Shown here: positions 12,945 through 61,445 of the stretch, one piece after another
Numbering within the stretch: position 1 is the stretch's first letter
Layout of the letters: each line of letters starts with the position of its first letter
Assembly (NCBI GenBank): GCA_000004985.1
Contig: GG738884.1
Length of the DNA stretch: 64,000 bases
Source of the DNA: Naegleria gruberi
Taxonomy: Eukaryota
Strand: one strand, 5' to 3'
Position numbers and translations under genes: made by a program
Notes under the pieces: generated by a model
What the model saw: the letters and a program-made list of their open reading frames with translations, nothing else
Told to the model about the DNA's origin: nothing
The model's database searches: none

Positions 12945-15273
12945 ATGTTATCATCAAACAACGTTGGTTCCTCTTCGAGTGGCGATGAGAAGTCATCATT
13001 AAAAAAGCACACAATGCATCATCACAGAGAAGAAATCGATTCATCATCGGCGCTCACAGAAACTTTAGATATTGAAGTTGTTGATGAAGAACATGAAAAG
13101 GATTTAGTGAAGGAGGAAGAAAGTGTTGCGGAATTAATTAAAGATGAAAATGTTGATGAGGAAAAGATTGATGGTGATTTACCAGATCAAGAAGAAGTAG
13201 AAGATGAATCATCTGCCCCAAAGGCTGTTAAAGAAAATTTTGATAAATTAAACGAACTTTTGCAAAAGACCGAAACCTACTCTCGTTTTATTCATGAACA
13301 TGTTGTCGGTGAAGAAGAAGATGATGTAAAAGAAGAAGAACAAGAAGAAGAGGAAGCAAGCGAAGGAGAGGAAGAAGAATCAAACGGAAAAAGAAAAAGA
13401 AAGGGTAGAAAGGCAACAACCACTGACGAATCAGCTCAAAAAAAGTTGAAATCTGTTTTCAGCAAATCCAAGACATTACAAACAGCTAATCAAGCTGCTT
13501 TAAAGTATTCTCAACCAAAATATTTGTCCGGAACAACACTTAGAGATTATCAATTGAAGGGTGTTAACTGGTTGATTAGTTTGTATGAAAATGGTGTCAA
13601 CGGTATTTTGGCAGAGTAAGTTTTCTTTATTTGGAATGTGTTATTTACTAATTATTTCAAGTGAAATGGGTCTCGGAAAAACTATTCAAACTATTGGATT
13701 ATTTTGTCATCTTTATGAAAAGGGAATTAAAGGACCATTCCTTGTTGTTGCACCATTGTCAACTGTATCAAATTGGGTAAATGAGATTGATAAATGGGCT
13801 CCTGATATTGGGTGTGTACTTTATCATGGTAATAAGGATGATAGAGCTATTATAAGAGCAAAGAATTTTTCAAAGGTAAAGAAGGGACAAATTGCTGTAG
13901 TAGTTTCATCATATGAAATTGTTATGAGAGACAAGAAATTCTTGGCAAACAAATTTAATTGGAAGTATATTGTAGTAGATGAAGCCCACAGATTGAAAAA
14001 TTTCAATTGTAGATTAACTAGAGAATTGAAGACTTACTCGAGTGAAAATAGATTGCTTCTTACAGGTACACCATTACAAAATAATTTATCTGAACTTTGG
14101 TCATTACTCAACTTTTTATTACCATCAATTTTTGACGACTTGAGTGCTTTTAACAAGTGGTTTGATTTTACAAAGAAGGAAAAGAATGATTATATTACAA
14201 ATGAAAAGACACAACTCATAAGCAAGCTTCATAACATTCTTCGTCCTTTCTTATTAAGAAGATTGAAGAGTGATGTAGATATTGGTATTCCAAAGAAACG
14301 AGAATTTTTAATTTATACACACATGACAGATATGCAAAAGGAATATTATAATGCTGTAAAAAGTAAGGATCTCTTACCAATTTTCAAAGATCAAAAGAGA
14401 GCAAATAGCACAACTCTTTTGAATTTACTTATGCAAATGAGAAAGATTTGTAACCATCCATTCTTGCTTAGGTATGTTTCGAGATTATTTTACATTTTTT
14501 TAATAATTTTATTTAGAGAATTTGAAACAAAAGACAGTGAATCTGAATCTGCTTCAAACAAGAGATTCTTGAAGGAATGTACACAAAATTCTGGTAAATT
14601 TGGATTACTTGTAAAAATGTTGGAAAATTTGAAAAAGAATGGTCACAAAGTTTTAATCTTCTCTTTAATGACAAGATTTTTGGATGTACTTGAAGATTAT
14701 CTTGAATGTAGAGGTGACATGAAATATTGTAGAATAGATGGTTCCATTGCTCAAACTGAGAGAGAACAAAAAATCAAAGAATTTAATCAAGATGAAGATG
14801 TATTTTGCTTTTTACTTTCCACTCGTGCTGGTGGTTTGGGTATTAACTTGACAGCTGCTGACACTGTTATTATTTACGACAGTGATTGGAATCCTCAAAT
14901 TGATTTACAAGCTCAAGATCGTTGTCACAGAATTGGTCAAAAACGTAGTGTTAGAATTTTCAGATTACTTACGTTAGGAACTGTAGAAAAGAAAGTTCTT
15001 CAAACAGCAACAAAGAAACTCAAATTGGAAAGACTTATCATCCACAAAGGAAACTTTAAAGGCAACACTCAACAACAAAGCAAGATGACTATCACAGCAC
15101 AAAATTTGATGGAAATTTTGGATGATACTCAAGTCAATAATGACAGCAAACATGATGAAGGAATTAATGACGATATCTTGGACAGACTTATCAATGAAAG
15201 AGGAGATGATTCAACTCTTCCAGCTGCAGGTGTTGGATATGAAGAAGCACACATCTTCCAACAAGACTTTTAG
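12945..15273 (+). CDS. SNF2-family chromatin-remodelling ATPase of the HELLS/Lsh/DDM1 type, three exons
   Basis: Exons 12945..13615, 13662..14471 and 14517..15273. Intron 1 is 13616..13661 (GTAAGT...TTTCAAG); splicing restores [15 protein letters not shown]. Intron 2 is 14472..14516 (45 nt, GTATGT...TTTAG). It is in frame, so the ORF reads through it. [33 protein letters not shown]...[14 protein letters not shown] is closely HELLS-like. The helicase-C motifs are [13 protein letters not shown] and [11 protein letters not shown]. Confidence 0.8.
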
Positions 15274-16210: not shown

Positions 16211-17446
16211 TTGAGATCATTCTCTGCCACTCCTTTTTCCCAACAACAACAACAACTCAACAATTGCGCAACCCGAGCCACCTTGAATACCAATCTTGAT
16301 CATAATTCCTCCACTGAATCGTCTTCCAATAATGATTCTTCATCCAGTGGAAACATATCTGAAAAGCCACTTTCGAGACATTCACGAGAGAGTCTTGGCA
16401 CTATATACAATGAAGATTCATGTCAATCGAATACCAATCCTGAGAATACCAATAATTCTTCTGCTAGTGGAGTTGGTGGCCTTTCGTCCTTTGATTCCTC
16501 TTTCCAACATGCTCTCACCACTCAGGAAAACCTCAATGAACCAAATCGATCAAAGAAACTAGATGTTCTCTCAGCTGATCAGATACGACAATACTTTTGC
16601 TATACTCAACAAGATGCTGCTCGTCTATTGGGTGTCTCTGTATCGACATTGAAGAGACGTTTCTATGAGCTCAAGTTGGGAAAGAGATGGCCCTACAAGA
16701 GAACTAAGCAAACACCACGAAAGAGAAAGGATAAGCAGACAATGAGTGAGGAGAGACAACTCATTGATCAGGGTATTAAGGCATGCTCAAATGTTATGAT
16801 TCTCACTCCCATGAAACAATCACCAGTAGTACTACTGATGGCCACAAGTAAGGGAAGCAATAATGGATCTGCAATTCTCAACCTTTCGAATGGTTTCTCT
16901 AATAATGTAGAAGTTTCGGTAAGACAGCAAACACCACCATCTGCTACAAGTAATATGAGTCAACAACAATCAGTTTTCGATAAGAGAAACTTGAAGAATA
17001 ATCAATCATCCTATTCGAGTGGTATTGAAAAGCAACACAAGATGAATTCACCCTCTTCCAATAAGGTACTTTCACCAATCAAGAATATATTACTCCAACA
17101 ACATTCCAATAATTCTGAATTCTTAAGTATTGTAAATAGATCTAGATCCTCTTCCAATCATTCCATGAGCAGTTCCTCAGTTTCTTCCACCAATCCAAAT
17201 AATCAGCATCATTCCTCATCCAATCACTCATTACAAGATGAAAAGGGAGCTCTTTCCACACAACCATATCCACAACTAAATCACAATTCTTATCATCCAT
17301 CCTCGTCCCCCCTCAATATGACGAGAAACGAAAATTCATGCAAGAGAGAAACATCTATGGAGCAATCCAGAAAGAAACTTTCTCTCAGTTATATATTGAA
17401 TCATTCCGATTGTAACAATTCGATATCATCCGAGCAAACTTCATGA
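16211..17446 (+). CDS. RWP-RK domain transcription factor with S/N/Q-rich low complexity (5' end uncertain)
   Basis: The RWP-RK core is LSADQIRQYFCYTQQDAARLLGVSVSTLKRRFYELKLGKRWPYKR. The ORF begins at TTG 16211 and the frame stays open upstream toward 16090 with no in-frame ATG, so the true start or an upstream exon is unresolved. An upstream low-complexity ORF (from about 15941) could be the 5' part. Confidence 0.6.
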   Translation: MRSFSATPFSQQQQQLNNCATRATLNTNLDHNSSTESSSNNDSSSSGNISEKPLSRHSRESLGTIYNEDSCQSNTNPENTNNSSASGVGGLSSFDSSFQHALTTQENLNEPNRSKKLDVLSADQIRQYFCYTQQDAARLLGVSVSTLKRRFYELKLGKRWPYKRTKQTPRKRKDKQTMSEERQLIDQGIKACSNVMILTPMKQSPVVLLMATSKGSNNGSAILNLSNGFSNNVEVSVRQQTPPSATSNMSQQQSVFDKRNLKNNQSSYSSGIEKQHKMNSPSSNKVLSPIKNILLQQHSNNSEFLSIVNRSRSSSNHSMSSSSVSSTNPNNQHHSSSNHSLQDEKGALSTQPYPQLNHNSYHPSSSPLNMTRNENSCKRETSMEQSRKKLSLSYILNHSDCNNSISSEQTS

Positions 17447-22777: not shown

Positions 22778-23950
22778 ATGTCCTCCATTCAAGAACAATC
22801 TCCACAATATACTCGTGTGCAATATGTATCCCTCTCAACGCAGGGAGTCATTACAGAAAAGATAAAGTCCCAGATATTAGCCTCATCCAACAAGAACAAT
22901 TCCAAGCGTCATATTACCGGCTGTTTGATATGTGTGAAGGATATGTTCTTTCAAATTATTGAGGGAAAGACAGATGATGTTGAAAATTTATATACAACTA
23001 TTGTCAAGGATAAAAGACACAACAATGTTGTCTGTGTTGACAAGTCTCAGTTTTTTAATGAAGAAGAGAGAATGTTTCCTTCATGGGATATGAAATCGCT
23101 TGATGTTGACAGTTTATTCTCAGCAAAGAAGGAAGTTTTGATTTGTGGGGAGAATTGTAATCCACTGGATCCAGCACATAAACGAGTCATTGAGACTGCA
23201 TTCTCTGCTTTCACAACCTTGATGGGTAGTTTGTTTAGAGCTCAACAAGTTTTCAAGAATTATGCTCAACCGAGTGTCAGCAGGTTTGTCAGAGAAGGAT
23301 TGAATCCACTCTGTATTCAATCAGTTGAAACTGAAAAGATTGTACTTTTTGTTGACCTTGTAAATTATACCACCTTAACAGAAATCATTTCCCAATCGAG
23401 AAGTGCATCAGAAATTGTAAGAATACTCAATGTTTTCTTCACAATTGTTATGGAAATTGTTGAAGAATATGGAGGAGACATTACAAAATTGATTGGTGAC
23501 TGTGTAATGTGTCACTTTGATGGCCATGATTCACAGAAAGCAATAGATTGCTCATTGAAAATCCTCCAACAACTAGAACTTCTCAGAAATGAAACAACCG
23601 ATCCATTCGAAAAACTCATCTTTTGTACAATAGGCATATCTAAAGGAAAGGTCATTTTGGGAAATGTTGGTACAGTGGGTCGTAAATTAGACTATACTGT
23701 CATTGGTGATTCAGTTAACACATCGGCAAGATTGCAATCATTCGCTTCCTCGACTCAATATTATCTCATTTTCGATGAGAATGTAAAGAATGATTTGGAG
23801 AGTGGTGATTCAGTTATTTTCTGTGGTTCGATAGAATTGAAAGGAAAAAGAAATACTGTAAACGCCTACACAATAGAAAATGAATATAATAGAAGATTGT
23901 TGAAAGAAGATTTGAAAGCTCTCTACTGTAGTGTATCACTAGAAATGTAA
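22778..23950 (+). CDS. photoactivated adenylyl cyclase type (BLUF plus class III cyclase), paralog 2, intronless, 390 aa
   Basis: ATG at 22778, single ORF. BLUF residues are present: Tyr in VQYVSLS, Gln in MFFQIIEG, and W/M in FPSWDM. The cyclase metal-binding Asp residues are in FVDLVNYT and IGDCVM. GNVGTVGRKLDYTVIGDSVNTSARLQ matches the guanylate/adenylate cyclase consensus. Confidence 0.85.
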   Translation: MSSIQEQSPQYTRVQYVSLSTQGVITEKIKSQILASSNKNNSKRHITGCLICVKDMFFQIIEGKTDDVENLYTTIVKDKRHNNVVCVDKSQFFNEEERMFPSWDMKSLDVDSLFSAKKEVLICGENCNPLDPAHKRVIETAFSAFTTLMGSLFRAQQVFKNYAQPSVSRFVREGLNPLCIQSVETEKIVLFVDLVNYTTLTEIISQSRSASEIVRILNVFFTIVMEIVEEYGGDITKLIGDCVMCHFDGHDSQKAIDCSLKILQQLELLRNETTDPFEKLIFCTIGISKGKVILGNVGTVGRKLDYTVIGDSVNTSARLQSFASSTQYYLIFDENVKNDLESGDSVIFCGSIELKGKRNTVNAYTIENEYNRRLLKEDLKALYCSVSLEM

Positions 23951-24978: not shown

Positions 24979-26232
24979 TTACAATTCGAGGTATTCTTTT
25001 AATCTAGCTAACCTATTATCTTCAATATTTACATCTAACAATTTCAATAAATCCTCAAGAATCAATTTTTTGTATACGTCTTTGAATAGAGGATGATGAA
25101 CAGAGACAGAATAGTTATAAGCTAAACCTGTTGGAGATTTACAGGTACAAAAGTACCACTTGTTCTGAAGCTCATTCCAATCAGACCACTGAATTTTCTC
25201 CTCTTTCAAGTGTTGTTTGAGATTCTTCAAACAATGTTGACACTTAATAAATTCACCTCCAAAATGAACTCCATGGAATTCTACAAGTGTGTAAGCACCA
25301 ATTTGAATTTTTTGGCATTGACAAGATTGTAAACAACCACCTGATGATCCATTCATAACACTCTCATTTGAAATAATAAAGTTGGAGTTTTCTGTCGTTA
25401 ATACCAAATCATCATGTTCAACCCATTCAATTTTGCCATTTTGAACTTTTTCAGTGTAAGGTGCAAGTACTTTTCCTGTAGAAACACATAACCTCCCAAA
25501 ATTGTGAAACACGTTTCTAGCCATATCATCACAAGGTGCCCATTCTTGGTATTCCTGATGCTGTGAAACGGAGGTTGAAAATTTAGTTCCTTCAATGCCT
25601 GGAAAATGTGTTGTGAAAATATCATCGTCAATTTGGAGTACAGTTGGACATGGAATGAATAAAACCTTTGGCCATTCATGCGATACTTTACAAGTCAATT
25701 TATGGATTGAAATATCCAAATAATTGAAATTGCCTATTGAGCTGGATATTGGGTCTTGATATTCCTGTTGAAACGATGGAAAAAGTTCTTCTTGTTTTTG
25801 CATGAGTTTCCACCCCTTTTCTCTAATTAGAGAAGCACCTGTATATATAACACTCTCCTCTTTTGGAAGTGTAAAATTGGTTGTTGCTTTTGCAAGTTGT
25901 CCAGTGAAAAATGTAGGTGGAGATGGATAGGATATGTGTTGATTTGTAATTACTTGTTGAGGAAGAATGTAGAAACCTGTACCAACAGCCGAAACAGTTA
26001 GAACCCTTGTCATACTCTTTTTTGTTAGTAATATCAACTCCTTAATAGAGTTTAATTTGTCAAGCCTTGAGTGAGAATATTTCAAATTGGTTGGTGGTAT
26101 AATTTGAGCATCTTCATCTACCAAGAAAACGTTCCAGTAAACATCGTGAAAATGCTCCTTTGTTGAAACTGCAACATCACCTTGTTCCGATTGAGGCACC
26201 ACAACTTCCAACACTTGCCTTACAAACCGCAT
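24979..26232 (-). CDS. hypothetical protein (417 aa) with a trypsin-like (Trypsin_2/DegP-like) peptidase segment
   Basis: ATG at 26232. SAVGTGFYILPQQVITNQH fits the GSGF..ILTNAHV pattern, with a later NGSSGG (GNSGG-like). The C-terminal half is Cys/His-rich. The product call is tentative. Confidence 0.4.
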   Translation of the reverse strand: MRFVRQVLEVVVPQSEQGDVAVSTKEHFHDVYWNVFLVDEDAQIIPPTNLKYSHSRLDKLNSIKELILLTKKSMTRVLTVSAVGTGFYILPQQVITNQHISYPSPPTFFTGQLAKATTNFTLPKEESVIYTGASLIREKGWKLMQKQEELFPSFQQEYQDPISSSIGNFNYLDISIHKLTCKVSHEWPKVLFIPCPTVLQIDDDIFTTHFPGIEGTKFSTSVSQHQEYQEWAPCDDMARNVFHNFGRLCVSTGKVLAPYTEKVQNGKIEWVEHDDLVLTTENSNFIISNESVMNGSSGGCLQSCQCQKIQIGAYTLVEFHGVHFGGEFIKCQHCLKNLKQHLKEEKIQWSDWNELQNKWYFCTCKSPTGLAYNYSVSVHHPLFKDVYKKLILEDLLKLLDVNIEDNRLARLKEYLEL

Positions 26233-26920: not shown

Positions 26921-27286
26921 CTTAGTTTTTGATTTTAATATTGTTTTGTTTTTTTCTTGTTGTAAATTAATTGATCACACTGAGAATGAGGCGAATATTT
27001 ATAGCTTAGTTGATCACAAGAGAGATTGGTTCTTGTATGGAACAGCTTTTAAACTCATCTCTTGGTGTGATTCACATGGCGAAAAAAGCCTTTGAGATCA
27101 ACTCTCTTACTTGTGATGGAGATAAACTTTGGATAATTTTTTTGAATAAGCCGAGAGCTAGTTATTAATGGCGGGAAAGGAATTGAAGTTCATACTCAAC
27201 ATTGATCCACTTGGAGTTTGAATGAAATTTTGAATTTGAATGTTTGCCGCCAAAATTTAAACCATGTTATCCAAGCTATAAATAAA

Positions 27287-28345
27287 ATGATAAAACAAAA
27301 TATCATCACACAATCAGCGTTTCATCTTTTGAAACAGCACAACAAATATCATTATTTTAATAATTTATTATTCGGAATGAGTCAGCAGGCGAACAACAAA
27401 TTTTATAGTGTAAAATCGGAACAAGTTTATACAACAAATAGGATCAAGAGATTTGAAAGGACTCTGACGGAACCGAATCAATTTTCTGTTTACTCACAGA
27501 ATTTGTTGGCCGGGTATTGGACCGATTTGGATAGATATTATTTTGTGGAGGAACCTAAGGAGGAACATTATGAATGGAGTGGGAGAGTAAAGAAACTTTT
27601 GAGAGATTTCACCATTCATCAACCTGACATTTTATGTCTGCAAGAAGTAGAATTGGCTTGTTTTGAAAAGGACGTTTTGGAACCTTTGCAGAAAGTAGAC
27701 GAAAGTTATAGAGGTGTAGCACAGAAAAAACTTGGAGATTTCCCAGTCGGAGTTGGGTGTATCTTTAAAGAAAGCGTTTTTGAATTGGTAGAAGTTTTTG
27801 AAAGAAGTTCTGTAATTATTTTGGTATTGAAATTTAAAGCAAATGATACACTGATATATGTGTCATCTTGCCATTTGATGGGAGATCCACGAAAACCTCA
27901 AACACGTATCAACCAACTCAAATCTTATTTCAAACATCTCAAAAATTATCAGAAGGGAAAGGATCATCCTGTAATTGTAGCTGGGGACTTTAACACAGAA
28001 CCAAACTCTGCTACGTATGATTATGTAGTGAATGGATTCCTCAAAGGTAAATCTGAGGAGAATGATGTTATCGCAACTGATACTGATATCAAGCACACAT
28101 TCAAATTAAAAAGTGCATATAAGGAAATTAATGGCAAGGAACCTGAAATGACATTGAGAACAATTAACAGCTCACTAACCTGTGATTATCTTTTCTACAC
28201 TAATGAATCTCTAAAGCTCAATAATGTAATGTCTCTTTACGAAAATGGAGATAAGACACACATGGAACGTTTAGGCTTGCCAAACTCAAAATATGGATCA
28301 GACCACTTGGGATTACAAGCACATTTTACGATTACAAAGCAATAA
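27287..28345 (+). CDS. endonuclease/exonuclease/phosphatase (EEP) family protein, similar to CCR4, angel, nocturnin or PDE12
   Basis: ORF 27218..28345; the first ATG is at 27287. EEP motifs are DILCLQEVE, VIVAGDFNTEPNSATYDYV and the C-terminal GSDHLGLQAHF. Confidence 0.65.
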   Translation: MIKQNIITQSAFHLLKQHNKYHYFNNLLFGMSQQANNKFYSVKSEQVYTTNRIKRFERTLTEPNQFSVYSQNLLAGYWTDLDRYYFVEEPKEEHYEWSGRVKKLLRDFTIHQPDILCLQEVELACFEKDVLEPLQKVDESYRGVAQKKLGDFPVGVGCIFKESVFELVEVFERSSVIILVLKFKANDTLIYVSSCHLMGDPRKPQTRINQLKSYFKHLKNYQKGKDHPVIVAGDFNTEPNSATYDYVVNGFLKGKSEENDVIATDTDIKHTFKLKSAYKEINGKEPEMTLRTINSSLTCDYLFYTNESLKLNNVMSLYENGDKTHMERLGLPNSKYGSDHLGLQAHFTITKQ

Positions 28346-28589: not shown

Positions 28590-31500
28590 ATGATCCGAAC
28601 TCAAAAAAAAACACAAAAGATGACAGGCCAGCAGGTCTGTATTGGAAGAAGTCTTTCCTCTGAAGGCTACTTGATGTTGTTGACATTGATGGTAGCTATA
28701 GTTTGTCTCTCTCAAATCTCTTCAGTTTCTGGAATTACATTCTACGCCAGTATCGATTGTGGTCCTCATGGAAATTGTAGTGGCTACGCATGCCAATGTG
28801 AAAGTGGTTATATTGGCCCTCATTGTGAATATCAATGTAATGATACGGAATGTAATGGTCATGGAAAGTGCAACCCATCTTATAGTGGTTCATATGGTAG
28901 TAGTTTTTGTAAGTTTCACACATGTGCTTTTTTACAATAATATAATTACATGCGTAATTTGTTCTTTTTTTACAATAATATGATTACATATATGTAATTT
29001 GTTCATGATACAGGTAATTGTGATAAGGGTTATGGTGGCGTGAATTGTTCACAAAAGTTCGATTGTTCTTCATTGAATAATTGCTCAGCTCATGGTTATT
29101 GTTCCTACGACAATTATTGTACATGTGACTATGAGTGGACTGCTGCCAATTGTTCCCTTCCAATCACTTGTAATAAGGTCAATAATTGCTCAGGTCATGG
29201 TTATTGTTCTGGTTATCAAGCTTGTAGTTGCTCTCAAGGATGGACTGGTGCTGATTGTAATTCCGTTTACAATTGTTCACTTCTTAATAATTGCAATGGA
29301 AGAGGTATTTGTTCTGCTGATAATTATTGCTATTGTAATTCCCAAAGTGGTTATTATGGTGTCGATTGTACTACACCATACAATTGTTCAGCTTTGAATA
29401 ATTGTTCAAGTCATGGTGTCTGTACAAATAACGACTATTGTACTTGTAGTGCTGGTTATTATGGAACTAATTGTTCATTGAAATATGAGTGTGTATCCAA
29501 TGATGAATGTGGATTTCCAAATGGTAATTGTATGATGGGCTCTTGTTCTTGTGTTTTTGGTTGGGGAGGTGAAAAATGTCAAAAGATGATTTGTCCAAAC
29601 AATTGTAATAATCATGGCAATTGTTCTTCACCTGGTTCCTGTACTTGTGATAATGGATGGCTTGGTTCTGAATGTTCTTACTCATGTTCTGGTATTGGAG
29701 GTTGTGGTATTAATGGATATTGTGCCAATAATAATTCCTGCGTTTGTTATCCAGGTTGGCAAGGTGTCAATTGTAATATTGCAAAATCTCCAAATTGTAC
29801 TGCTTTTAATAATTGTTCAGGAAATGGTGATTGCATAAGTAGTTATGGAGGAGATGATTACTGCTCATGCTACCAAACTTATTATGGAGACAAGTGTGAT
29901 CTCAAGTACAATTGTAGCTCTTTAAATAATTGCTCAGGTCATGGTGTCTGTACAAATATCAACTATTGTACATGTGAAGCTGGTTTTGGTGGAAAGGACT
30001 GTTCTTCAAAGCCAAACTGTACTTCTTTGAATAACTGCAGTGGTCATGGCGTGTGTACTTATGATGACTATTGTATTTGTAATCTTAATTATGGAAATGC
30101 TGATTGCTCAGTTTACAATCCTCCAATTTGTCCAAATAATTGCTCTGGTAATGGTACATGCAATCAATATAGCTCTTGTGATTGTAAGGAAGGATATTGG
30201 GGATATGATTGCACAATTACTTGTCCAAAAACAAAGAATTGTAACAGTCATGGTTTTTGTTATGCTCAAGACCAATGCTCTTGTAATGTTGGTTGGATGG
30301 GAGAAGATTGCTCAGTTCCAGAACCAAATTGCAATGCTGTTAAGAATTGTTCCTATCATGGTGTTTGTATAGAAAACAATGTTTGTGCATGCTATACTGG
30401 TTATGATGGTTTAACTTGTGCTGACTATTCATGTAGAAACGTTTCAAATTGTAATGGGCATGGCTCATGCGTTGGGGTTGATACTTGCCAGTGTAAGAGT
30501 GGTTGGAGAGGAAACTCAGATTGTTCTGCCTTCTCTTGTGAAGCTGTTAATAATTGTACTGGATTGGGAAGCTGCATTGGTCAAAATCAATGTTCAGGAA
30601 ATCCATCAATCAAGTGTTATGGAGTTGTTTCAACCAGTGGTTCTGTATGTAGTGGTAAGGGTACTTGTGTTGGAACTGATAGTTGTCAATGTGTTAGTGG
30701 AGCTTTTGGATCTAATTGTAATTCATTTGCTAGAATTCCATCTAGCCAATTGGTTATTAACTCTGTCAATTTCGAGTCTGTCATTTCAATTCCAGTAACT
30801 TTGACTGGTCCAAGTACCTACACATTCAAATGGAAACAAGTTGGTGGATCTCCTTCATTGCAACTCTCTACAATTGCTGTGGGAGGTATTGTCAATGGAC
30901 CTGGTTTGTACATTAACGCAAATTCTGAAACATTCAACAATGGAATGGTTGCTGGTGAAACTTACACCTTCCAAGTTAATATTACTAGAGCTGATGGATA
31001 CTCTACCGTTTTGGAATCAAGCGTTCAAGTTGGTTTGAGTCCAGTGTTGAAAGCCACAATAGTCAATCCATCTGATAACTCACAAACTGGTGTTGCTGTT
31101 ACTACCAAATTTACTGCTACTATTCAAGAATCCTATGATCCAAATGATTCTGAAGCTACATTAATGTACGGATATGGTTTCTACACTGAAAGTGGTTTGA
31201 AGGTTGTCTCTGTTTATTCTTCATCCAAGCAAACTAATTTAACGCTCCCATATCAAACTGGTGGCTCCGTTACTGCCTTTGTATACGTCATCAATGCACA
31301 AACTGGTAATCAAAAGGAACTCAAGTTCTCAATGAATGTTTCAAATCCAACAAGTGGAAAGTCAGCCTCAGAAGTCAATTCATTTGTTCAAAATCTTGTT
31401 ACTTCAGATGCTTCGGTTTCTCAATTGTCCATAGCTGTTCAATTGTTGACCACCTCACCATCCAGTGATCCAACTGTTGTTCAACAACGTACCGATATCA

Positions 31501-32447
31501 AGCAACAAGTTATTACAACTCTCGTTTCTAAACCAGTAACAACTAGTGCTGAAAGAGACACTTTGTTGACAGTTCTTGTTTCAACTACTCAATCAGCCAA
31601 CGAAGTATCAACTACATCAGTTACAAAGACTTTGGATTTCTTAGTTTCCCAACCATCATTGGCTCAAAACTTCAATCCATCCCAACTTGGTCAACTTGCC
31701 TCTCAAATTTTGTCAACAGCTGTTTTTAATTCGACCAGTATCTCAACTTCCACCACAAGTAAACAAGTTAGAACCATCATCGATGCTGCCATGACTGCCA
31801 CAGCCTCAAACTTGGCTGCTGGACAAAGTGCTGTCAAGACATTTGGTAACATTGTTGCTGTCGTTTCAAGTAATACTCTTGATAATTTACAACCAACAAT
31901 CCCAACTAATTCAATTAGCTCAGTGGGTATTAAATCAATTTCTCTCCCAACTGCTAGTTTACAAAGTTTATTCACCAACTCTGGTCTTCCATCAAGCACT
32001 TTAGTTTCCTTATCACTTTCAACGGCTCCACTCTCAATGTACTCCTTCACTCAAACTAAACTAGCCTCAACTCTTGCCAGAATCGCCTTAATTAATTCCA
32101 ACAGTGCCTCTGCTATAGCTGTTGCCAATTTGACATTACCAATTGAATTCAATCTCCAACTTGGTGGTCCTGTAGAAAATGGAAAGACACCAAAATGCAA
32201 ATACTTTAACGAAGTTTCTAATTCCTTCACCACTGATGGCATTGAAACTATTGTCATCTCTTCAAGTGAAATCAAGTGTAGAGTTACTCACTTGACTGAT
32301 TTTGCAATTGTTCCAGAAACAAGTGGAACACCAACAAGTTCTGGTTCAGTGGTCAAGCCAAAGGATACTATTTCAGAAGGAAGTTCAGTTTCTGCAACTC
32401 TTGTTACATTATTAGTTGCTATTTTCTCAATGTTTTTCATGTTTTAA
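28590..32447 (+). CDS. large cell-surface protein: signal peptide, about 18 tandem tenascin/EGF-like Cys repeats, a Ser/Thr-rich stalk, a GPS (GAIN-type autoproteolysis) motif and a C-terminal hydrophobic anchor
   Basis: Exons 28590..28908 and 29014..32447. The intron 28909..29013 runs GTAAGT...ATACAG (phase 1). A repeat unit of about 36 aa, C.S.LNNCSGHG.C...YC.C..G..G.DC, recurs from about 28740 to 30720. The GPS consensus KCKYFNEVSNSFTTDGIETIVISSSEIKCRVTHLTDFAIV sits at about 32195-32315. The C-terminus is VSATLVTLLVAIFSMFFMF. Confidence 0.7.
28925..29010. repeat. tandem ~42-bp duplication inside intron 1 of the EGF-repeat gene
   Basis: ttttttacaataatataattacatgcgtaatttgttc is followed by tttttttacaataatatgattacatatatgtaatttgttc. 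Confidence 0.4.
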
Positions 32448-32553
32448 AACATTCACTTATAAATAAAAATATAATAAATTGTAATAACATTATTTGAACT
32501 GCGAACAAGTTTACAATTAAATTAGGAACTTGAAAAAAATCAATCAAAAAAAA

Positions 32554-33595
32554 ATGCAGCAAGCAATTTCGCACGATTTGATAACAGCAGAAAGTAGAGG
32601 AGTGATTTTGGATGTCAATGAAACATCCTCTCCCTCACAAATTACAATTCAAGATGATTCCAATGATTATACTAAAATTGATTTGAAAATTGAAACCAAG
32701 TCCGATAGTCAATTAGTTCGTTTTGTAGTTTTATCGGATACTCATAGATGTCAGGGTATTTACGACTATTGGTATGATGAGAAAAATAGAAGAGATAGTT
32801 TGGATTCCATTGAGGAAAAAGAGAATAGAGAATTTATCAAATTACCGAAAGGAGATTATTTGTTACATTGTGGAGATTTTACAAATTATTGTTTACCGAG
32901 TAGGTTTGAAAAGTTTTTAGTGGAATTCTCACACAAAAAGATGAATTGAGTGAATTTAATACATTTCTTGGAAAAATTAAACATCGTTACAAACAAATTA
33001 TTGTAATTCCTGGAAATGTAAGTGAATGCTGAAATATTTTGATATTTACAATTTGACTATTTAAACAGCATGAATTTGTAGGTATTTTTGAAAAATTAAA
33101 ATGTTTAGATGACTCTATTAGTGTGCTGATATGTGTTCTTTATTTTTGTACAATGCAACTGTATTGTTGAATGATTTTTTAGAGCTAGAAGATGGGAAGA
33201 TTACAATATTTGGATCAAGATTTAAATCATTTTGGATGAATTGGAAAATGACTGGATATGACTCTGACGCACAAAGTGACTGGTCAACTCTGACAAAACC
33301 AGTTCTCAAAGGTGAAAAAAAAGTTGACATTCTCATGACTCATCAACCACCTTATTTCAAGGAAATTTCAAATAGATTTTTCAGACGTGGAAGTAAATCT
33401 CTTAGAGAGGCCATAGAAACTGTCAAGCCAACCATAAACTTGTTCGGCCACAATCACGATATTTATGGAGTAAAGTATTCGTCAGATTATGATTTGAAAA
33501 ATCAAATTGACACAACCTTTATAAGTGCTTGCTCTTTGGATTCCCATGAAAACGCAAGAAAAGTAATAGTATTCGATTATCCAATAAATAAATAA
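32554..33595 (+). CDS. MPPED1/2-like metallophosphoesterase (calcineurin-like phosphoesterase), four exons including a putative 9-nt micro-exon
   Basis: Exons 32554..32899, 32941..33017, 33069..33077 (CATGAATTT) and 33122..33595. Intron 1 is 32900..32940 (GTAGGT...CAAAAAG). Intron 2 is 33018..33068 (GTAAGT...AAACAG). Intron 3 is 33078..33121 (GTAGGT...TATTAG). The MPP motifs are VVLSDTH, HCGDFTNY, IVIPGNHEF, ILMTHQPP and GHNHD. An alternative model for the third junction uses a weak GTGTGC donor at 33121 and an acceptor at 33182. Both models stay in frame. Confidence 0.6.
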
Positions 33596-39853: not shown

Positions 39854-40346
39854 GCATTTTCGAATTAAATAATAAAACGTAACGCTTTTTCTCAAAATCT
39901 TAACGTTACACAAACTGGCGCCAAAAATTTGAAAAGAATCAAAAAAAAAGTGAGAACAACAACAGCTGGAAGAGGCTAAACCACATTTTGTTGCACTTTA
40001 CTCTCGAGAGAACAATTACCAACAACAATCACAACAAGACAATATATGAACCATCAATTTTCTCATCCTTCCTCCCTGAAGAATACAAATAATAATAACC
40101 TGATACGAGCACCCTTCCTTTCACCTCCATCCAAAATAACACAACCAAAAACACATATTGATACTCCCGTGGTCACCCAGAGAACAATGTTCAATAATAA
40201 TCATCAACAGCATCACTCCTCACTACCATCAGGAACACAGGATGATAGTGTATTAAATAACAGAGACCGTTTACGAAGACAACACCTGAATAGACATAAT
40301 ATGCCCTCCACACCAACACTTGGAAAATCCAATCACTTTCAAGAGA

Positions 40347-42164
40347 ATGCCAATCCAACAACAACAACCTGGACAACCTGGTACTTCATTCACAATAGAA
40401 TTATCTACAGCACCAAAGAAAGGTCCACCACAACACTTGTTAGAACGTTTAAGTAAAAAGACAAGTGTAGCAAAGAGTGTCAAGGATTCCGAAATGGGTG
40501 ATGGAAACAATACACAAATGCAACAACCAGCCACAACAACAGCAGCAACTACTACTGGTAGTGCTAATAACACTGCAATCACAGCCAATCAGAGAAGACA
40601 AACTATTTTGGAATTCCAAAAGAGAAAGAGTACAACAGCAACAACTCTTAAAAATTCCCTCAATAAGCCAACACAAACTAATCCTCCTAATTTAACATAC
40701 ACTACCTTTGATACAAATGGTCTGACATTGGACGATGATTTGGAAATTGGATTTGAGAAATCTGGGTCTCCTATTGTTTCATTGAATGGATTGAATAGAG
40801 CCAGTCAGCCTTCTCCAAATAATTTTGCTTTTGGAGCTCAACAAAATGTAAATAGTCAACCAAACATTCCTGCTCAACAAGGTTTCCAACAACCACAACA
40901 ATTTGGTGGGTTCAATCAACAACAAGAGAATAATCAACCAAACCCTCAATGGCAAATTGAACAACAACAATTAGAACAACAGCAACGAGTGGCAGAACAA
41001 CAAAAGCTTGAACAGCAACAATTGGAGCAACAGAGAATGACAGAACAGCAAAGAGTTGCTGCTGAGCAACTCCTTCAACAACAACAATTGGAACAACAGA
41101 GAATGGCTGAGCAACAACGTTTAAGGGATCAGCAACAACAGCAACAATTGGATCAACTCAATGAGCAACAACGTGCTGCAGCAGAGCAACAAATTCTTCA
41201 ACAAAAGCAAATGGAACAACAAAGAATGCTAGATCAGCAACGTATTGAACAAGAAAAGCTTCAACAACAATTTGCTGAGCAACAACGTAATGCAGAACAG
41301 CAAAGAATTGCTGCCGAGCAACAACATTTGCTTCAACAACAACAAATGTGGCAAGCTCAACAAGTTTCCCATCAACCTCAACCTCAATCTCAAATGCAAT
41401 ATATTCCAGTTTACCAAACTGTTCCATCTGAAGAAGTTCAAAGAATGATTCATGAAGTGCAACGTCAACAGGCTGAATTCGAAAGACAAAGACAAGCCCA
41501 GATGGAAATAATTCAAAGAGAAAGAGCTGAACTTGAACTGGGAAGGGAATTGTTGAGGAGACAACAACTTGAACTCCAAGCCAAATTGAATGAAGTTGAT
41601 CAAATCAAGATGGGATTACCTCCATCAACTGAAAGAAGAAACTCGATCGATGCTCGTAGAAATGAAGTAGAAGCCAACAGAAATATCAAAAGAACAGCTC
41701 AAAGACAAGAGATTATTAAATCAAAGAGAGAACTTAACTTGCTTAATGTTGACAAATTGTCGAGAACCTCAAGAGAAATCAAGAGAGAAGAAAGAGAAGA
41801 AGAAAAGAAGAGAACTAGATCCATGTTACCAGAAGGCATTTTCTCACCACCAAGAGCCAAACCAACACTCTCAAGGCCATCCATGTATGGTTCAAGAACC
41901 ACTCCATCCTCCGTTACTAAATCAGATATCAGCACTGGTAGAAAAACAATTGAGACACCAACTTCTCTATACAGCCCTGCATCCTCAATGAGGGGAAGTA
42001 TTAGATCGAGTGTTTCGACATCTAAGTCCAACTCTAGGGAAATGGCTTCTCCATCAAACCAATTGAGTAAGAGAAAGCAAATGGTTTTGGAAAAGACAAG
42101 AAGAAAAGCAGAAGAATTTTCTCGTAAATCAACATCCAATAATAATACTCCATGTCAACATTAA
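40347..42164 (+). CDS. Q-rich coiled-coil protein with a periodic (L)EQQ(R) repeat and a basic, S/T-rich C-terminus
   Basis: ORF 40320..42164; the first ATG is at 40347. Codons 40880-41360 form CAA/CAG-rich imperfect tandem repeats (QQLEQQRMTEQQRVAAEQLLQQ...). The overlapping upstream ORF 40046..40456 (ATG 40046) in another frame could be the true 5' end if there is a frameshift or an unseen intron. Confidence 0.5.
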   Translation: MPIQQQQPGQPGTSFTIELSTAPKKGPPQHLLERLSKKTSVAKSVKDSEMGDGNNTQMQQPATTTAATTTGSANNTAITANQRRQTILEFQKRKSTTATTLKNSLNKPTQTNPPNLTYTTFDTNGLTLDDDLEIGFEKSGSPIVSLNGLNRASQPSPNNFAFGAQQNVNSQPNIPAQQGFQQPQQFGGFNQQQENNQPNPQWQIEQQQLEQQQRVAEQQKLEQQQLEQQRMTEQQRVAAEQLLQQQQLEQQRMAEQQRLRDQQQQQQLDQLNEQQRAAAEQQILQQKQMEQQRMLDQQRIEQEKLQQQFAEQQRNAEQQRIAAEQQHLLQQQQMWQAQQVSHQPQPQSQMQYIPVYQTVPSEEVQRMIHEVQRQQAEFERQRQAQMEIIQRERAELELGRELLRRQQLELQAKLNEVDQIKMGLPPSTERRNSIDARRNEVEANRNIKRTAQRQEIIKSKRELNLLNVDKLSRTSREIKREEREEEKKRTRSMLPEGIFSPPRAKPTLSRPSMYGSRTTPSSVTKSDISTGRKTIETPTSLYSPASSMRGSIRSSVSTSKSNSREMASPSNQLSKRKQMVLEKTRRKAEEFSRKSTSNNNTPCQH

Positions 42165-46982: not shown

Positions 46983-49421
46983 ATGTCGGGATTGAATTTT
47001 GTCAAGTCAAACAAGGAAATCGATTCAATGATGTTATCACCAACAAGTGGAAAAATAAAAGATGAAAAGAAAGTAGATAATAATTTGGGAAATATTTCTA
47101 TGGACACACCTATGGATTCGGCCATTCTTCCTTCATCATCTAATGTTGATTCGGAAAGGAGAGTATTTTCAACACCTCCTCCTCATCCAGTTGCTGCCCA
47201 ACATTATTATAGAAAATTATTTTCCGATCAACAGGAACCAATAAGAAACGAAGAACAATTGAATGATAATAGTCATCCTAATAATAACAATTTTAAAAGC
47301 AATAATGCAATTTATCCGTCATCATTATCTGGAGCTGCTGGATTTATTACACCATATGCTCAACCAATTTATACGATGATGGCACCACAAGCATTCCAAC
47401 CATATCCAGCCTCTTATCAACCTACTACTTCTGTTCAACCCACTATTTCTTCAATAGTTACAGATTCTTTGCTATCCTTGATTAAATACTTGATTTTCTT
47501 CCTTCTCTCATTGGGTATTTTCAAGGTAGGAAAGAGATGGATTCTTTCTCTTTTGAAAAACTATAGAATTATTGAGAGAGTACCCTCAAGAAAGGAATCA
47601 GAGCTTGTGGTAAAACCAGAAATTAAACTAGAAAAAAGAGAAGAGGAAGAATATTCAAATATTAACGAATCAGAACCAAGAGAACAACAGCAACAACAAA
47701 GGGAGAATGTAAAACCAACAAGTGGAGAATCTACAAATCCTAGTTTGGATTTTAATAGTATGATGTTTTTACAAAGAGAAATATTTGATTTAAAATTATC
47801 TTTAAATGAAATGAAAACTAAAATGGGAGAAATGAATAATCAGGCCATTTCCAATACGTTATTAAAACAAATGGAATTGCAACAGGAACAACAAAAGATG
47901 ATCCTCTCCCAAACACTCTCCAAAAATGACAAATCAACCTCTTCTGATGAGCTTCACCGTGAACTTAATAATTTGAGAAATGATTTATCTCAAATGAAAG
48001 GAATGATGATGGTCAATCATCAACCTTACACTGTAGCTCCACCAATTATTCACAGAGAGCCAGTCCAATACTATCCAAAATATAGTACTCAATCAGTTTC
48101 CCCAGCTACCAGCTCTAGCTCCAACGAGAACAAGCTTATTGAACACAATTTGACAAGTAGTATCAAGACAAGCTCACCACCTACTAGAAAAGAAGGAAAA
48201 GCCCCTTCACCTGTAAATTACCTTAATTCTTACAGCACAACTGACCCAACAAATTATGAATCAGGTATTTCCAAACGTTCTCAACCTTCTATTGAGATGC
48301 CACAGCAACCTACAGAAGAAAAAACCAACTCAGCTCAAGAAGCAACACAAGAACATGTTGAATCAAAAACAACACCGACCAATGAGGAAAAGACTGATGA
48401 ATCACAATTTGAATATGGGCAAAAATTCGAACCAATCACAGAGGAAGAATATGATCAAGTTTATGGTGAATATCTGAATTCTCTAGGTAAACGATTCGAA
48501 GATCAAGTAAATTTCCATACACACGCCGAACCTACACCCTCTGAAACTAAAACTGAGAATGCTACTGTTGAGGAAACCATCCCAGTTCAAGAAAGCAACC
48601 CTGTAGCTCAAAATAATGAGAACAATTCACTTGAAACTGAAACTCCAATGACAAGTAATATCACCACAAGCAAACCATTCGATGAGGTTGACGTATTCAA
48701 TATTTTGAAAACACCAACACTATCATTCGATGAATTATTTGTCAAGGCCTCTCCAAAGCAACCTGAAGCATCCTCTGTTTTCAATGATGTAACTTCTCCA
48801 TCAGTATCTATTGAGAATAATAATGCTGTTACTGAAAGCTCACCATCATTTGTAACACCTCAGGCTAGTTCTTCAATTCAGGAGGCTGCCAGAGAGTTGA
48901 GAAAAACTCAACTCACTGCCAAACAAAAGAAATCCAAGATATTTGGTGTATTGTTAGCCCCTGAAAAGAAGACAAAGAAAAAAAGACCAGCCAAAACAAC
49001 TACACCTGAAACCCAAGAAGCGCCAAAGGAGTCAACTCCAAACACAATTTCTATTGAAACTAGCATATTGTCAGAGAGTGAAAAATCAATTGAAAATTCA
49101 CCTGAAGCGGTACTACCAGTCAACAATTTCGCTCCAGAAATTCCAATCAGCATGAACACTCTCTCCAATCCAATTATTGATCCTCCTTCAACAGAATCTT
49201 TTGAAAAGTTTGAAACGTATAATTTTGAAAATGATGAAAGGTTCCAAAGAATGTTAAGTCTCACAGCTGACGACGAAGATTGCCCAATCAATAAGGATGA
49301 TCCAAACTTTTTATTAATGCAAAAAGGAATATATTTTAAACAATTGTTAGGAAATGATGACTTTGATTTAGAGGCCTACATGAAGGTAAAAGGAATTGAA
49401 ACCAATCAACAGAATAATTGA
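46983..49421 (+). CDS. hypothetical single-pass membrane protein (812 aa), S/T/P/N/E-rich
   Basis: ATG at 46983. It has one strong transmembrane segment (LLSLIKYLIFFLLSLGIFKV) followed by a coiled-coil stretch and a long acidic, low-complexity tail. Confidence 0.5.
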   Translation: MSGLNFVKSNKEIDSMMLSPTSGKIKDEKKVDNNLGNISMDTPMDSAILPSSSNVDSERRVFSTPPPHPVAAQHYYRKLFSDQQEPIRNEEQLNDNSHPNNNNFKSNNAIYPSSLSGAAGFITPYAQPIYTMMAPQAFQPYPASYQPTTSVQPTISSIVTDSLLSLIKYLIFFLLSLGIFKVGKRWILSLLKNYRIIERVPSRKESELVVKPEIKLEKREEEEYSNINESEPREQQQQQRENVKPTSGESTNPSLDFNSMMFLQREIFDLKLSLNEMKTKMGEMNNQAISNTLLKQMELQQEQQKMILSQTLSKNDKSTSSDELHRELNNLRNDLSQMKGMMMVNHQPYTVAPPIIHREPVQYYPKYSTQSVSPATSSSSNENKLIEHNLTSSIKTSSPPTRKEGKAPSPVNYLNSYSTTDPTNYESGISKRSQPSIEMPQQPTEEKTNSAQEATQEHVESKTTPTNEEKTDESQFEYGQKFEPITEEEYDQVYGEYLNSLGKRFEDQVNFHTHAEPTPSETKTENATVEETIPVQESNPVAQNNENNSLETETPMTSNITTSKPFDEVDVFNILKTPTLSFDELFVKASPKQPEASSVFNDVTSPSVSIENNNAVTESSPSFVTPQASSSIQEAARELRKTQLTAKQKKSKIFGVLLAPEKKTKKKRPAKTTTPETQEAPKESTPNTISIETSILSESEKSIENSPEAVLPVNNFAPEIPISMNTLSNPIIDPPSTESFEKFETYNFENDERFQRMLSLTADDEDCPINKDDPNFLLMQKGIYFKQLLGNDDFDLEAYMKVKGIETNQQNN

Positions 49422-59606: not shown

Positions 59607-59679
59607 GGGGATGTAGCTCACATGGTAGAGCGCTTCTTTAGCATGGAAGAGGTACGGGGATCGATACCCCGCATCTCCA
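59607..59679 (+). tRNA. tRNA-Ala, anticodon AGC
   Basis: A 73-nt cloverleaf folds by hand. The acceptor stem is GGGGATG/CATCTCC with the G3:U70 alanine identity pair. The D-stem is GCTC/GAGC. The anticodon stem is CTTCT/GGAAG with loop TTAGCAT (U33, AGC, A37). The T-stem is CGGGG/CCCCG. The discriminator is A73. No intron. Confidence 0.85.
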
Positions 59680-61289: not shown

Positions 61290-61445
61290 GATCGATTTAC
61301 GTATTTTTTTTAAGAATAGTTGGCGAAGTGACAAGTTAAAAGAAACGTGAAAAGGACAAACAATTCCTTGTTGTAAAATCAACGGAATTGAATGCTTTAT
61401 TTTTGTACTTTTCACGTTTTAGACGGAATGGTATGACTCACTGCT

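What the first reader, a model, noticed from the sequence alone, without database searches (positions are those of the whole stretch)
28590..32447. Giant EGF/tenascin-repeat surface protein ending in a GPS (GAIN autoproteolysis) motif on a non-GPCR scaffold
It starts with a signal peptide. About 18 tandem Cys-rich repeats of about 36 aa follow (C..LNNCSGHG.C.....C.C..G..G..C). Next comes a Ser/Thr-rich mucin-like stalk of about 450 aa. Near the C-terminus sits the canonical GPS pattern C-x-C-x-T-H-L-T-x-F-A-(I/V), as KCRVTHLTDFAIV. This is the site cleaved between L and T in adhesion GPCRs, polycystin-1 and sea-urchin REJ. Here it precedes a single hydrophobic tail rather than a 7TM domain. 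It is therefore a candidate self-cleaving adhesin or shed receptor. Intron 1 contains a tandem 42-bp duplication.
Basis: partly seen in the sequence, partly recalled or inferred. Interest (0 to 1): 0.55.

Follow-up and report, generated by a model that had tools for sequence, protein, structure and literature searches.

The report
Naegleria EGF surface protein with GAIN domain
This is an already annotated but unstudied gene of the amoeba Naegleria gruberi for a large cell-surface protein whose membrane-proximal part is a complete self-cleaving "GAIN" domain, the module known from animal adhesion receptors and polycystin-1, here attached to a bare lipid or single-helix anchor instead of a receptor body.

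The parts
28590..28733 (+). N-terminal signal-peptide-like segment. It spans aa 1-48, with a hydrophobic core at aa 27-40 and V-S-G at positions -3 to -1. The annotated protein starts at Met11 (28620).
   Evidence: Kyte-Doolittle scan and sequence inspection. The annotated start comes from P0148. No dedicated signal-peptide predictor was available.
28740..30719 (+). Array of 17-18 tenascin/teneurin-type EGF repeats (aa 51-675), interrupted by the intron.
   Evidence: Pfam EGF_TEN 1.1e-68 (231.8 bits against a cut-off of 65), EGF_Teneurin in 15 stretches, EGF_2 in 13 stretches. Segmentation gives a median unit of 35 aa, and 16 units have exactly 6 Cys.
28909..29013 (+). Intron 1, 105 nt, GTAAGT...ACAG, 23% GC. 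It holds an imperfect tandem duplication with a 38-nt period (28928-28964 and 28966-29004).
   Evidence: Splicing restores the frame and reproduces the annotated protein. The duplication is shown. TRF did not report it.
30762..31343 (+). Two beta-sandwich (Ig/PKD/FN3-like) domains, aa 690-778 and 784-883. They are related to part of the REJ domain through a Willaertia homologue.
31365..31808 (+). GAIN subdomain A, a bundle of about 7 alpha-helices (aa 891-1038).
31824..32321 (+). GAIN subdomain B, a beta-sandwich of about 12 strands (aa 1044-1209). It includes the GPS motif (aa 1166-1205, 32190-32309).
32289..32297 (+). Predicted autoproteolysis site H1199-L1200 | T1201. The strand after it reads TDFAIV.
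   Evidence: Direct reading of the sequence. In the model the T-H-L-T turn lies between strands 515-520 and 525-532 of the fragment. H-L-T is present in 7 of 9 full-length family members.
32196..32279 (+). The only two cysteines of the C-terminal half: C1168 (32196-32198) and C1195 (32277-32279). They correspond to C1 and C3 of the GPS.
   Evidence: Cys positions. In latrophilin-1 the pairs are C801-C832 and C820-C834 (PMC3321182). C2 and C4 are absent together in 27 related GPS regions and present together in 4, with one exception.
32322..32399 (+). Ser/Thr/Pro/Gly-rich linker (aa 1210-1235), predicted disordered. It contains candidate GPI omega residues (S1227, G1229).
   Evidence: pLDDT below 50. 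Omega candidates come from sequence inspection.
32400..32447 (+). C-terminal hydrophobic segment LVTLLVAIFSMFFMF (aa 1236-1250) running to the last residue, followed by the TAA stop.
   Evidence: Mean Kyte-Doolittle value 2.64, and 0 residues follow it. Eight of 9 Naegleria/Willaertia family members end 0-3 residues after the equivalent stretch.

Best explanation
The locus encodes a secreted, membrane-anchored glycoprotein of Naegleria gruberi (NAEGRDRAFT_70445). From N to C it has:
- a signal peptide;
- 17-18 tenascin/teneurin-type EGF repeats, which form the ligand- or substrate-binding head;
- two beta-sandwich domains related to the REJ/PKD region;
- a complete GAIN domain whose GPS carries an intact His-Leu|Thr site;
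- a 34-residue tail that runs from the cleavage site to the anchor;
- a hydrophobic C-terminus with no cytoplasmic residues, most likely a GPI-attachment signal and otherwise a minimal single-pass anchor.

The domain architecture is shown here. The following steps are inferred from how GAIN domains work in latrophilin and polycystin-1. The GAIN domain would cut its own chain between L1200 and T1201 during folding in the ER. The large N-terminal fragment would then stay bound non-covalently to a tiny anchored fragment, through the last beta-strand (TDFAIV). This would give the amoeba an adhesion or recognition molecule with a built-in mechanical breakpoint that lets the ectodomain be shed under load.

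The protein belongs to a Naegleria/Willaertia family. Family members mount different heads (EGF arrays, CAP, B-lectin, NHL repeats) on the same beta-sandwich + GAIN + short-anchor stalk.
For: - Gene model and identity.
- EGF array.
- Pfam GPS is above the gathering score.
- Family profiles hit only adhesion-GPCR GAIN domains among PDB sequences. A1 against ADGRL3 gives E 0.0016 over about 255 positions. A2 gives 23 hits, best 8.3e-13.
- The AlphaFold model has pLDDT 79 and pTM 0.67, with about 7 helices and then about 12 strands. The T-H-L-T turn lies before the last strand.
- The top 6 Foldseek hits are GAIN structures, best E 9.9e-11.
- The coordinated absence of C2 and C4 fits the published disulphide pairing.
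- H-L-T is conserved in 7 of 9 family members and in most of the distant hits.
- There is no 7TM domain. Only two hydrophobic segments exist, and the protein ends at the second.
- Heads vary on a constant stalk.
- The organism is assigned from the neighbouring PAC gene and from cluster names.
Against: - Autoproteolysis is not demonstrated. The consensus is necessary but not sufficient, because BAI3 and BAI2 GAIN domains crystallised uncleaved.
- The C2-C4 disulphide, one of two that hold the cleavage turn in latrophilin-1, is missing, and both GPS tryptophans are replaced by Phe.
- Two family members (P0116 with Q-L-G, and P0120, which is degenerate) keep the module without the catalytic residues. 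The module therefore has a role that does not need cleavage.
- The window protein itself gets no Pfam GAIN or REJ hit by sequence. The GAIN assignment rests on a predicted structure built from only 9 sequences.
- The GPI anchor is judged by eye only. GPI machinery in Naegleria was not verified here.
- There is no expression or localisation data for this gene.
Confidence: 0.6

Rival explanations
1. The same architecture, but the GAIN domain is a non-cleaving structural stalk. The protein would then be a single-chain adhesin or matrix-binding protein, and the H-L-T sequence would be kept for folding reasons only.
For: Paralogue P0116 (Q-L-G) and P0120 (no H-L-T) keep the whole module. The C2-C4 disulphide that helps fix the scissile turn in latrophilin-1 is absent. 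Uncleaved GAIN domains are well documented, for example BAI3 4DLO and BAI2 8OEK, which are the best Foldseek matches.
Against: H-L-T followed by x-F is conserved in 7 of 9 family members and in most of the more distant hits. The one-disulphide GPS type is shared with sea-urchin REJ proteins. According to the literature cited (Qian 2002; Mengerink 2002), polycystin-1 and suREJ3 are cleaved at their GPS.
Confidence: 0.3
2. The C-terminal hydrophobic stretch is a true single-pass transmembrane helix and is not replaced by a GPI anchor. This would give a type I protein with no cytoplasmic tail.
For: The segment is 15-17 residues of high hydrophobicity and is modelled as a helix. One Willaertia relative (P0122) and distant relatives, including sea-urchin proteins, have genuine TM helices with basic cytoplasmic tails. 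suREJ1 has a single putative TM segment near its C-terminus (PMC2120838).
Against: Zero residues and no positive charges follow the hydrophobic stretch. The same holds for 8 of 9 Naegleria/Willaertia members. Small residues (S, G, S, S) lie 5-9 positions upstream, as in GPI signals. The stretch is on the short side for a plasma-membrane helix.
Confidence: 0.35
3. One reading: a disordered mucin-like Ser/Thr stalk of about 450 aa carries an isolated short GPS motif.
For: The region has 24-32% Ser+Thr. Single-sequence AlphaFold gave low confidence, pLDDT 41.
Confidence: 0.03

Closest known systems
[quoted passage not shown] 1996, PMC2120838)
   Same: The overall layout is the same. suREJ1 has a signal sequence, N-terminal EGF and lectin-type binding modules, a large REJ region, and a single hydrophobic segment close to the C-terminus, with no 7TM or 11TM body. 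Sea-urchin REJ-domain proteins found here (P0125, P0129) share the one-disulphide GPS type. They match the window protein's GAIN-B region with HMMER E about 1e-7 and hhalign probability 96.8.
   Different: The window protein gives no Pfam REJ hit. The link to REJ is only transitive, through Willaertia P0121. It has 17-18 EGF units and no C-type lectin domain. suREJ1 has a short cytoplasmic end after its TM segment, whereas this protein has none. The two organisms are a discoban amoeba and an animal.
GAIN domain of adhesion GPCRs (latrophilin/ADGRL, BAI/ADGRB, Gpr126/ADGRG6, CD97/ADGRE5; Arac et al. 2012, PMC3321182)
   Different: There is no 7TM domain, so no cis tethered-agonist signalling is possible. 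It has one disulphide instead of two, and Phe in place of both GPS tryptophans. No HormR domain is present. Sequence identity to the solved GAIN domains is 9-17%.
Polycystin-1 (PKD1) extracellular stem: PKD repeats, REJ, then GAIN/GPS
   Same: The order of beta-sandwich domains followed by a GAIN domain with a cleavable H-L|T before the membrane is the same. From memory of the human PC1 sequence, its GPS is also of the two-Cys type; this was not checked here. Polycystin-1 is described as an atypical adhesion GPCR with a GAIN domain (PMC13197933).
   Different: There is no 11-TM body, no PLAT/LH2 domain and no channel-like region. No Pfam PKD or REJ hit reaches threshold for the window protein.
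Naegleria fowleri 7TM-RGS proteins with EGF, lectin and GPS motifs (Bosch et al. 2022, PMC9283941)
   Same: They come from the same genus and have the same kind of ectodomain, with EGF-like repeats, carbohydrate-binding modules and a GPS motif before the membrane.
   Different: Those proteins continue into seven TM helices and a cytoplasmic RGS domain, while this one stops at the anchor. How closely the two GAIN domains are related could not be tested here.
Drosophila Cirl single-pass (1TM) isoform
   Same: It is a GAIN-bearing protein with one membrane span, reported to work together with the 7TM isoform (PMC13197933). It is a precedent for a GAIN protein without its own signalling body.
   Different: It is a splice isoform of an adhesion-GPCR gene, not a separate gene family. 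It is an animal protein and has no EGF array.

Membership tests
GPS/GAIN autoproteolytic domain | Match to the Pfam GPS model (PF01825) at or above the gathering score | tested here: met
   23.7 bits (E 7.1e-5) for the 573-aa fragment and 24.7 bits (E 3.5e-5) for the 324-aa fragment, against a gathering score of 22.5. GPS was not listed when the whole 1250-aa protein was scanned.
GPS/GAIN autoproteolytic domain | The GPS is embedded in a domain of about 320 residues: subdomain A of about six helices, then subdomain B, a beta-sandwich of about 13 strands (PMC3321182) | tested here: met
GPS/GAIN autoproteolytic domain | His-Leu | Thr/Ser/Cys at the turn between the last two strands | tested here: met
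   H1199-L1200-T1201 lies between modelled strands 515-520 and 525-532.
GPS/GAIN autoproteolytic domain | Four conserved Cys forming two disulphides (C1-C3 and C2-C4), plus two conserved Trp | tested here: not met
   Only C1 (C1168) and C3 (C1195) are present. C2 is Ile and C4 is Val, and both Trp positions are Phe. C2 and C4 are lost as a pair. The same one-disulphide form occurs in sea-urchin REJ+GPS proteins and in 27 of the 32 related GPS regions examined. This marks a subtype and does not exclude membership.
GPS/GAIN autoproteolytic domain | Actual cis-autoproteolysis into non-covalently associated fragments | not testable with these tools
   This needs a western blot or mass spectrometry of wild type against T1201/H1199 mutants.
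Adhesion GPCR (class B2) | A seven-transmembrane domain directly after the GAIN domain | tested here: not met
   Only one hydrophobic segment follows the GPS, and the protein ends with it.
Polycystin-1 / REJ family | REJ domain (Pfam PF02010) | tested here: inconclusive
   The window protein gives no REJ hit, even at E up to 10. Willaertia homologue P0121 hits REJ at 1.2e-18 over 838-1202. Residues 1023-1232 of P0121 align to window fragment residues 32-243 at E 1.7e-10. hhalign of the family profile against a sea-urchin REJ protein matched only the GAIN-B part.
Polycystin-1 / REJ family | Multi-pass membrane body with a PLAT/LH2 domain | tested here: not met
   There is no sequence after the single hydrophobic end.
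Tenascin/teneurin-type EGF repeat proteins | Tandem 6-Cys EGF units matching EGF_TEN / EGF_Teneurin | tested here: met
   EGF_TEN scores 231.8 bits against a cut-off of 65, and EGF_Teneurin matches 15 stretches. Sixteen units have exactly 6 Cys.
Mucin-like stalk | A long disordered Ser/Thr/Pro-rich, usually repetitive, segment | tested here: not met
   Pro is 3-6%, the maximum S/T/P in any 30-aa window is 53%, and there are no tandem repeats. The region is conserved and predicted to be folded.
GPI-anchored surface protein | An N-terminal signal peptide, plus a C-terminal hydrophobic signal with no cytoplasmic residues, preceded by small omega residues | tested here: inconclusive
   The features are present by inspection and recur in 8 of 9 family members. 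No GPI predictor was available, and Naegleria GPI machinery was not verified.

The most novel reading that the evidence does not exclude
The protein could be one half of a split adhesion-receptor system in a discoban amoeba. After GAIN self-cleavage, a lipid-anchored stub carrying the TDFAIV strand would remain on the surface. When force removes the EGF-bearing fragment, the exposed strand, or the whole GAIN protein acting as a co-receptor, would engage the GPS-bearing 7TM-RGS receptors of Naegleria. This would resemble the way the Drosophila Cirl 1TM isoform pairs with its 7TM isoform. If so, GAIN-based mechanosensing with interchangeable heads would have existed far outside Holozoa, independently of the GAIN-7TM fusion.
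Probability: 0.07. Interest if true: 0.8.

Novelty: new member of a known kind. Interest (0 to 1): 0.35.

Why it matters
GAIN domains are the defining self-cleaving module of animal adhesion GPCRs and polycystin-1, and their history before animals is poorly documented. Published work records them in Tetrahymena and Dictyostelium (PMC3321182) and notes GPS motifs on Naegleria 7TM-RGS proteins (PMC9283941). A recent survey places the GAIN-7TM fusion in stem holozoans (PMC12716839).

This locus shows a full predicted GAIN fold in a heterolobosean, on a scaffold with no signalling body. It belongs to a small family that swaps binding heads on a constant stalk. It therefore offers a minimal system for asking what GAIN cleavage does when no receptor is attached, for example shedding or mechanical release.

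It also adds a Discoba data point for dating the domain. The gain is incremental: the gene is already in the databases and the module is known.

Tried and rejected
- The word-indexed homologue search with the C-terminal 573 aa returned nothing. With the GAIN-B profile it returned one protein. The 8000-candidate list was probably saturated by Ser/Thr-rich words. The exhaustive HMMER search was needed to find the family.
- A single-sequence search against PDB sequences found nothing. Single-sequence AlphaFold was unusable, with pLDDT 41.
- Pfam GAIN and REJ models do not hit the window protein, even at E up to 10.
- The afdb50 fold library was not available, so the taxonomic spread of structural relatives could not be surveyed.
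- Tandem Repeats Finder did not report the intron duplication. It was confirmed by pairwise alignment and by the repeat finder.
- tblastn found no second copy of the stalk or the EGF array elsewhere in the window.
- Literature searches found nothing for the gene identifiers, for Naegleria with 'GAIN domain', or for Naegleria with GPI transamidase.
- The chance-motif, mucin-stalk and adhesion-GPCR readings were considered and rejected, as set out in the rival explanations and the membership table.
Full report
**Gene model and source**

The finding sits on a two-exon gene on the + strand. Exon 1 is 28590-28908, the intron is 28909-29013 (105 nt, GTAAGT...ACAG, 23% GC), and exon 2 is 29014-32447, ending in TAA. 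Splicing keeps the frame and gives 1250 aa.

An exhaustive HMMER search followed by a cluster look-up showed that the product is identical, from Met11 onward, to Naegleria gruberi NAEGRDRAFT_70445. That entry (XP_002674375.1, UniProt D2VNC3) is annotated only as 'predicted protein'.

The genus is supported independently. The neighbouring gene at 22778-23950 encodes a BLUF-adenylate cyclase that is 76% identical to a named photoactivated adenylyl cyclase of Naegleria australiensis; an unnamed database sequence is 80% identical. The window is 34% GC. No paper in the searchable library mentions the gene.

**Checking the observation**

The N-terminus has a hydrophobic core at aa 27-40, followed by V-S-G at aa 46-48. 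The only other hydrophobic segment is the last 15-17 residues.

Residues 51-675 split into 17 pieces ending in C-x-C-x2-G-x2-G-x2-C. The median length is 35 aa. Sixteen pieces have exactly six Cys, the first has five, and the last is a 65-aa composite with ten. Pfam scores the array as EGF_TEN (1.1e-68, 231.8 bits against a cut-off of 65), EGF_Teneurin (15 stretches) and EGF_2 (13 stretches).

The string KCRVTHLTDFAIV is present, with H-L-T encoded at 32289-32297. When the C-terminal part is scanned without the EGF array, Pfam GPS (PF01825) scores 23.7-24.7 bits against a gathering score of 22.5.

Two details are off:
- The motif is C-R-V-T-H-L-T, so the second Cys of the canonical C-x-C is missing. 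The whole C-terminal 573 aa holds only two Cys, C1168 and C1195.
- The intron duplication is an imperfect 38-nt-period tandem copy, 28928-28964 and 28966-29004, with 34 of 37 matches and a 2-nt indel. It is not 42 bp. TRF did not report it.

**The 'mucin-like stalk' is folded protein**

The 530 residues between the EGF array and the anchor contain 24-32% Ser+Thr but only 3-6% Pro. No 30-residue window exceeds 53% S/T/P, and there are no tandem repeats.

The region aligns end to end, at 23-31% identity, with eight other proteins from N. gruberi and Willaertia magna.

Without an alignment AlphaFold gave pLDDT 41. With the 9-sequence alignment it gave mean pLDDT 79 and pTM 0.67. In fragment numbering (add 677 for protein numbering) the model shows:
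- two beta-sandwiches, 13-101 and 107-206;
- about seven helices, 214-361;
- about twelve strands with small helices, 367-532;
- a disordered linker, 535-558;
- a terminal helix, 557-572.

This helices-then-strands order is the pattern defined for the GAIN domain: subdomain A of six helices, and subdomain B of 13 strands with the GPS as the last five (PMC3321182).

**Tests of the GAIN assignment**

- Foldseek against the PDB ranks GAIN crystal structures first to sixth: BAI3 4DLO (E 9.9e-11), BAI2 8OEK, ADGRL3 8VTI, GPR110 8HC0 and latrophilin-1 4DLQ.
- At sequence level, the profile of the whole stalk aligns positions 314-568 to ADGRL3 residues 699-968, with E 0.0016.
- A 24-sequence profile of the last 175 residues hits 23 PDB sequences. 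All are adhesion-GPCR GAIN domains, down to E 8.3e-13.
- In the model the T-H-L-T turn lies between strands 515-520 and 525-532. This puts L1200|T1201 at the position of the scissile bond, and TDFAIV forms the last strand. That strand resembles the tethered-agonist core TxFAVLM.

**The cysteine pattern**

In latrophilin-1 the GPS disulphides are C801-C832 and C820-C834, that is C1-C3 and C2-C4. The window protein keeps C1 and C3 and has Ile and Val at C2 and C4.

Across the 32 related GPS regions recovered, C2 and C4 are absent together in 27 and present together in 4. There is one exception. This pairwise behaviour is what the known disulphide map predicts, and it argues for true homology rather than a chance motif.

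The one-disulphide form is also found in two sea-urchin (Lytechinus pictus) proteins. One of them (P0125) was scanned and carries Pfam REJ (1e-32) and GPS (6.7e-8). hhalign links it to the family over the GAIN-B part with 96.8% probability.

Both GPS tryptophans are Phe in the window protein.

**The beta-sandwich domains**

Structurally they match tandem FN3, PKD and Ig modules. By sequence the window protein gives only a sub-threshold PKD_2 hit, E 0.018.

The Willaertia homologue P0121 hits Pfam REJ at 1.2e-18 over residues 838-1202. Residues 1023-1232 of P0121 align to window fragment residues 32-243 at E 1.7e-10. A relationship to the REJ region is therefore plausible but shown only transitively.

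**Membrane attachment**

T1201 is separated by 34 residues from a 15-residue stretch of mean Kyte-Doolittle 2.64 that ends the protein. Nothing follows it.

Eight of the nine Naegleria/Willaertia members end 0-3 residues after the equivalent stretch. The exception is Willaertia P0122. It and more distant hits (sea urchin P0125, P0133, P0141) have a longer helix followed by a basic cytoplasmic tail.

Small residues (S1227, G1229, S1230, S1231) lie at the distance expected for a GPI omega site. I therefore favour a GPI anchor at roughly 0.6, over a tail-less single-pass helix. No predictor was available, and I could not document GPI machinery for Naegleria. Either way there is no 7TM or 11TM body.

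**Family context**

The same stalk carries different heads in different family members:
- EGF arrays (this gene; NAEGRDRAFT_69925 = P0116);
- a CAP domain plus EGF (NAEGRDRAFT_53120 = P0115);
- a weak, sub-threshold B-lectin match plus EGF (Willaertia P0117);
- NHL repeats plus EGF (P0120).

This is the modular logic of adhesion-GPCR and polycystin ectodomains. H-L-T is intact in 7 of 9 members. P0116 has Q-L-G and P0120 is degenerate. No second copy lies in this window.

**Mechanism**

The domain architecture is shown here. The rest is inferred from established GAIN biology (PMC3321182). Cis-autoproteolysis at L1200|T1201 in the ER would leave a roughly 1150-residue EGF-bearing fragment held non-covalently by the last strand to a small anchored stub. 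Pulling on the head could extract it and shed the ectodomain. With no receptor body, cis tethered-agonist signalling is excluded.

The main rival is that the domain is an uncleaved stalk. It is supported by the missing C2-C4 disulphide, by the non-catalytic paralogues, and by the precedent of uncleaved BAI GAIN domains.

A speculative extension is cooperation with the GPS-bearing 7TM-RGS receptors described in N. fowleri (PMC9283941). This would be analogous to the Drosophila Cirl 1TM/7TM pair (PMC13197933).

**Comparison with the known, and novelty**

The closest known layout is sea-urchin suREJ1. It has a signal sequence, EGF and lectin modules, a REJ region, and a single hydrophobic segment at residues 1418-1435 of 1450 (PMC2120838).

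GAIN domains outside animals are published for Tetrahymena and Dictyostelium. GPS motifs in Naegleria are published for the 7TM-RGS proteins. A 2025 survey holds that GAIN predates Holozoa, while the GAIN-7TM module arose in stem holozoans.

The locus is thus an uncharacterised new member of a known kind: a REJ-type, one-disulphide GAIN protein on a minimal anchor in a discoban. The interest is moderate (0.35).

Noticed in passing
window 22778-23950 (+): An intronless ORF of 390 aa has a BLUF domain (6.6e-25) followed by an adenylate/guanylate cyclase domain (4.6e-16). It is a photoactivated adenylyl cyclase, 76% identical to a named Naegleria australiensis PAC, with an unnamed database sequence at 80%. 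The next-best relatives are cyanobacterial-type BLUF-cyclases at about 35% identity.
   Followed up: partly
window 59607-59679 (+): A tRNA-Ala gene with anticodon AGC. It was the only Rfam hit in the window.
   Followed up: yes
window 32530-33595 (+): The gene immediately downstream appears to be a calcineurin-like metallophosphoesterase. It is split by at least one intron: two ORF pieces hit Pfam Metallophos at profile positions 2-55 and 118-189.
   Followed up: partly
window 27218-28345 (+): The upstream neighbour is an endonuclease/exonuclease/phosphatase-family protein (Pfam Exo_endo_phos, 6.4e-13). Its stop lies only about 245 nt before the start of the EGF-GAIN gene.
   Followed up: no
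window 9051-11534 (-), 13585-15273 (+), 16211-17446 (+), 61446-62711 (+): These are housekeeping and regulatory genes in a compact arrangement: XPB/ERCC3 helicase (1e-111), an SNF2-family ATPase, an RWP-RK domain protein and a PARP catalytic-domain protein.
   Followed up: no
window 46983-49421 (+), 40320-42164 (+), 24979-26232 (-), 60177-61415 (-): Four long ORFs of 812, 614, 417 and 412 aa have no Pfam match at E up to 0.001. They were not examined further.
   Followed up: no
proteins P0133, P0137, P0139, P0141 (hits; no window coordinates): Several uncharacterised proteins from metagenomes or unnamed eukaryotes carry a GPS/GAIN-B region followed by one true TM helix and a basic cytoplasmic tail. 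P0133 has two GPS regions in one chain. Single-pass GAIN proteins may be commoner in microbial eukaryotes than the literature suggests.
   Followed up: partly
protein P0113 (Logan assembly, 1523-nt contig): A 238-aa fragment is 99% identical to aa 734-949 of the window protein, with one Thr-to-Ala difference and unrelated ends. It is the cluster representative in place of the full-length RefSeq entry. It may be a transcript or strain variant from a public sequencing run.
   Followed up: no
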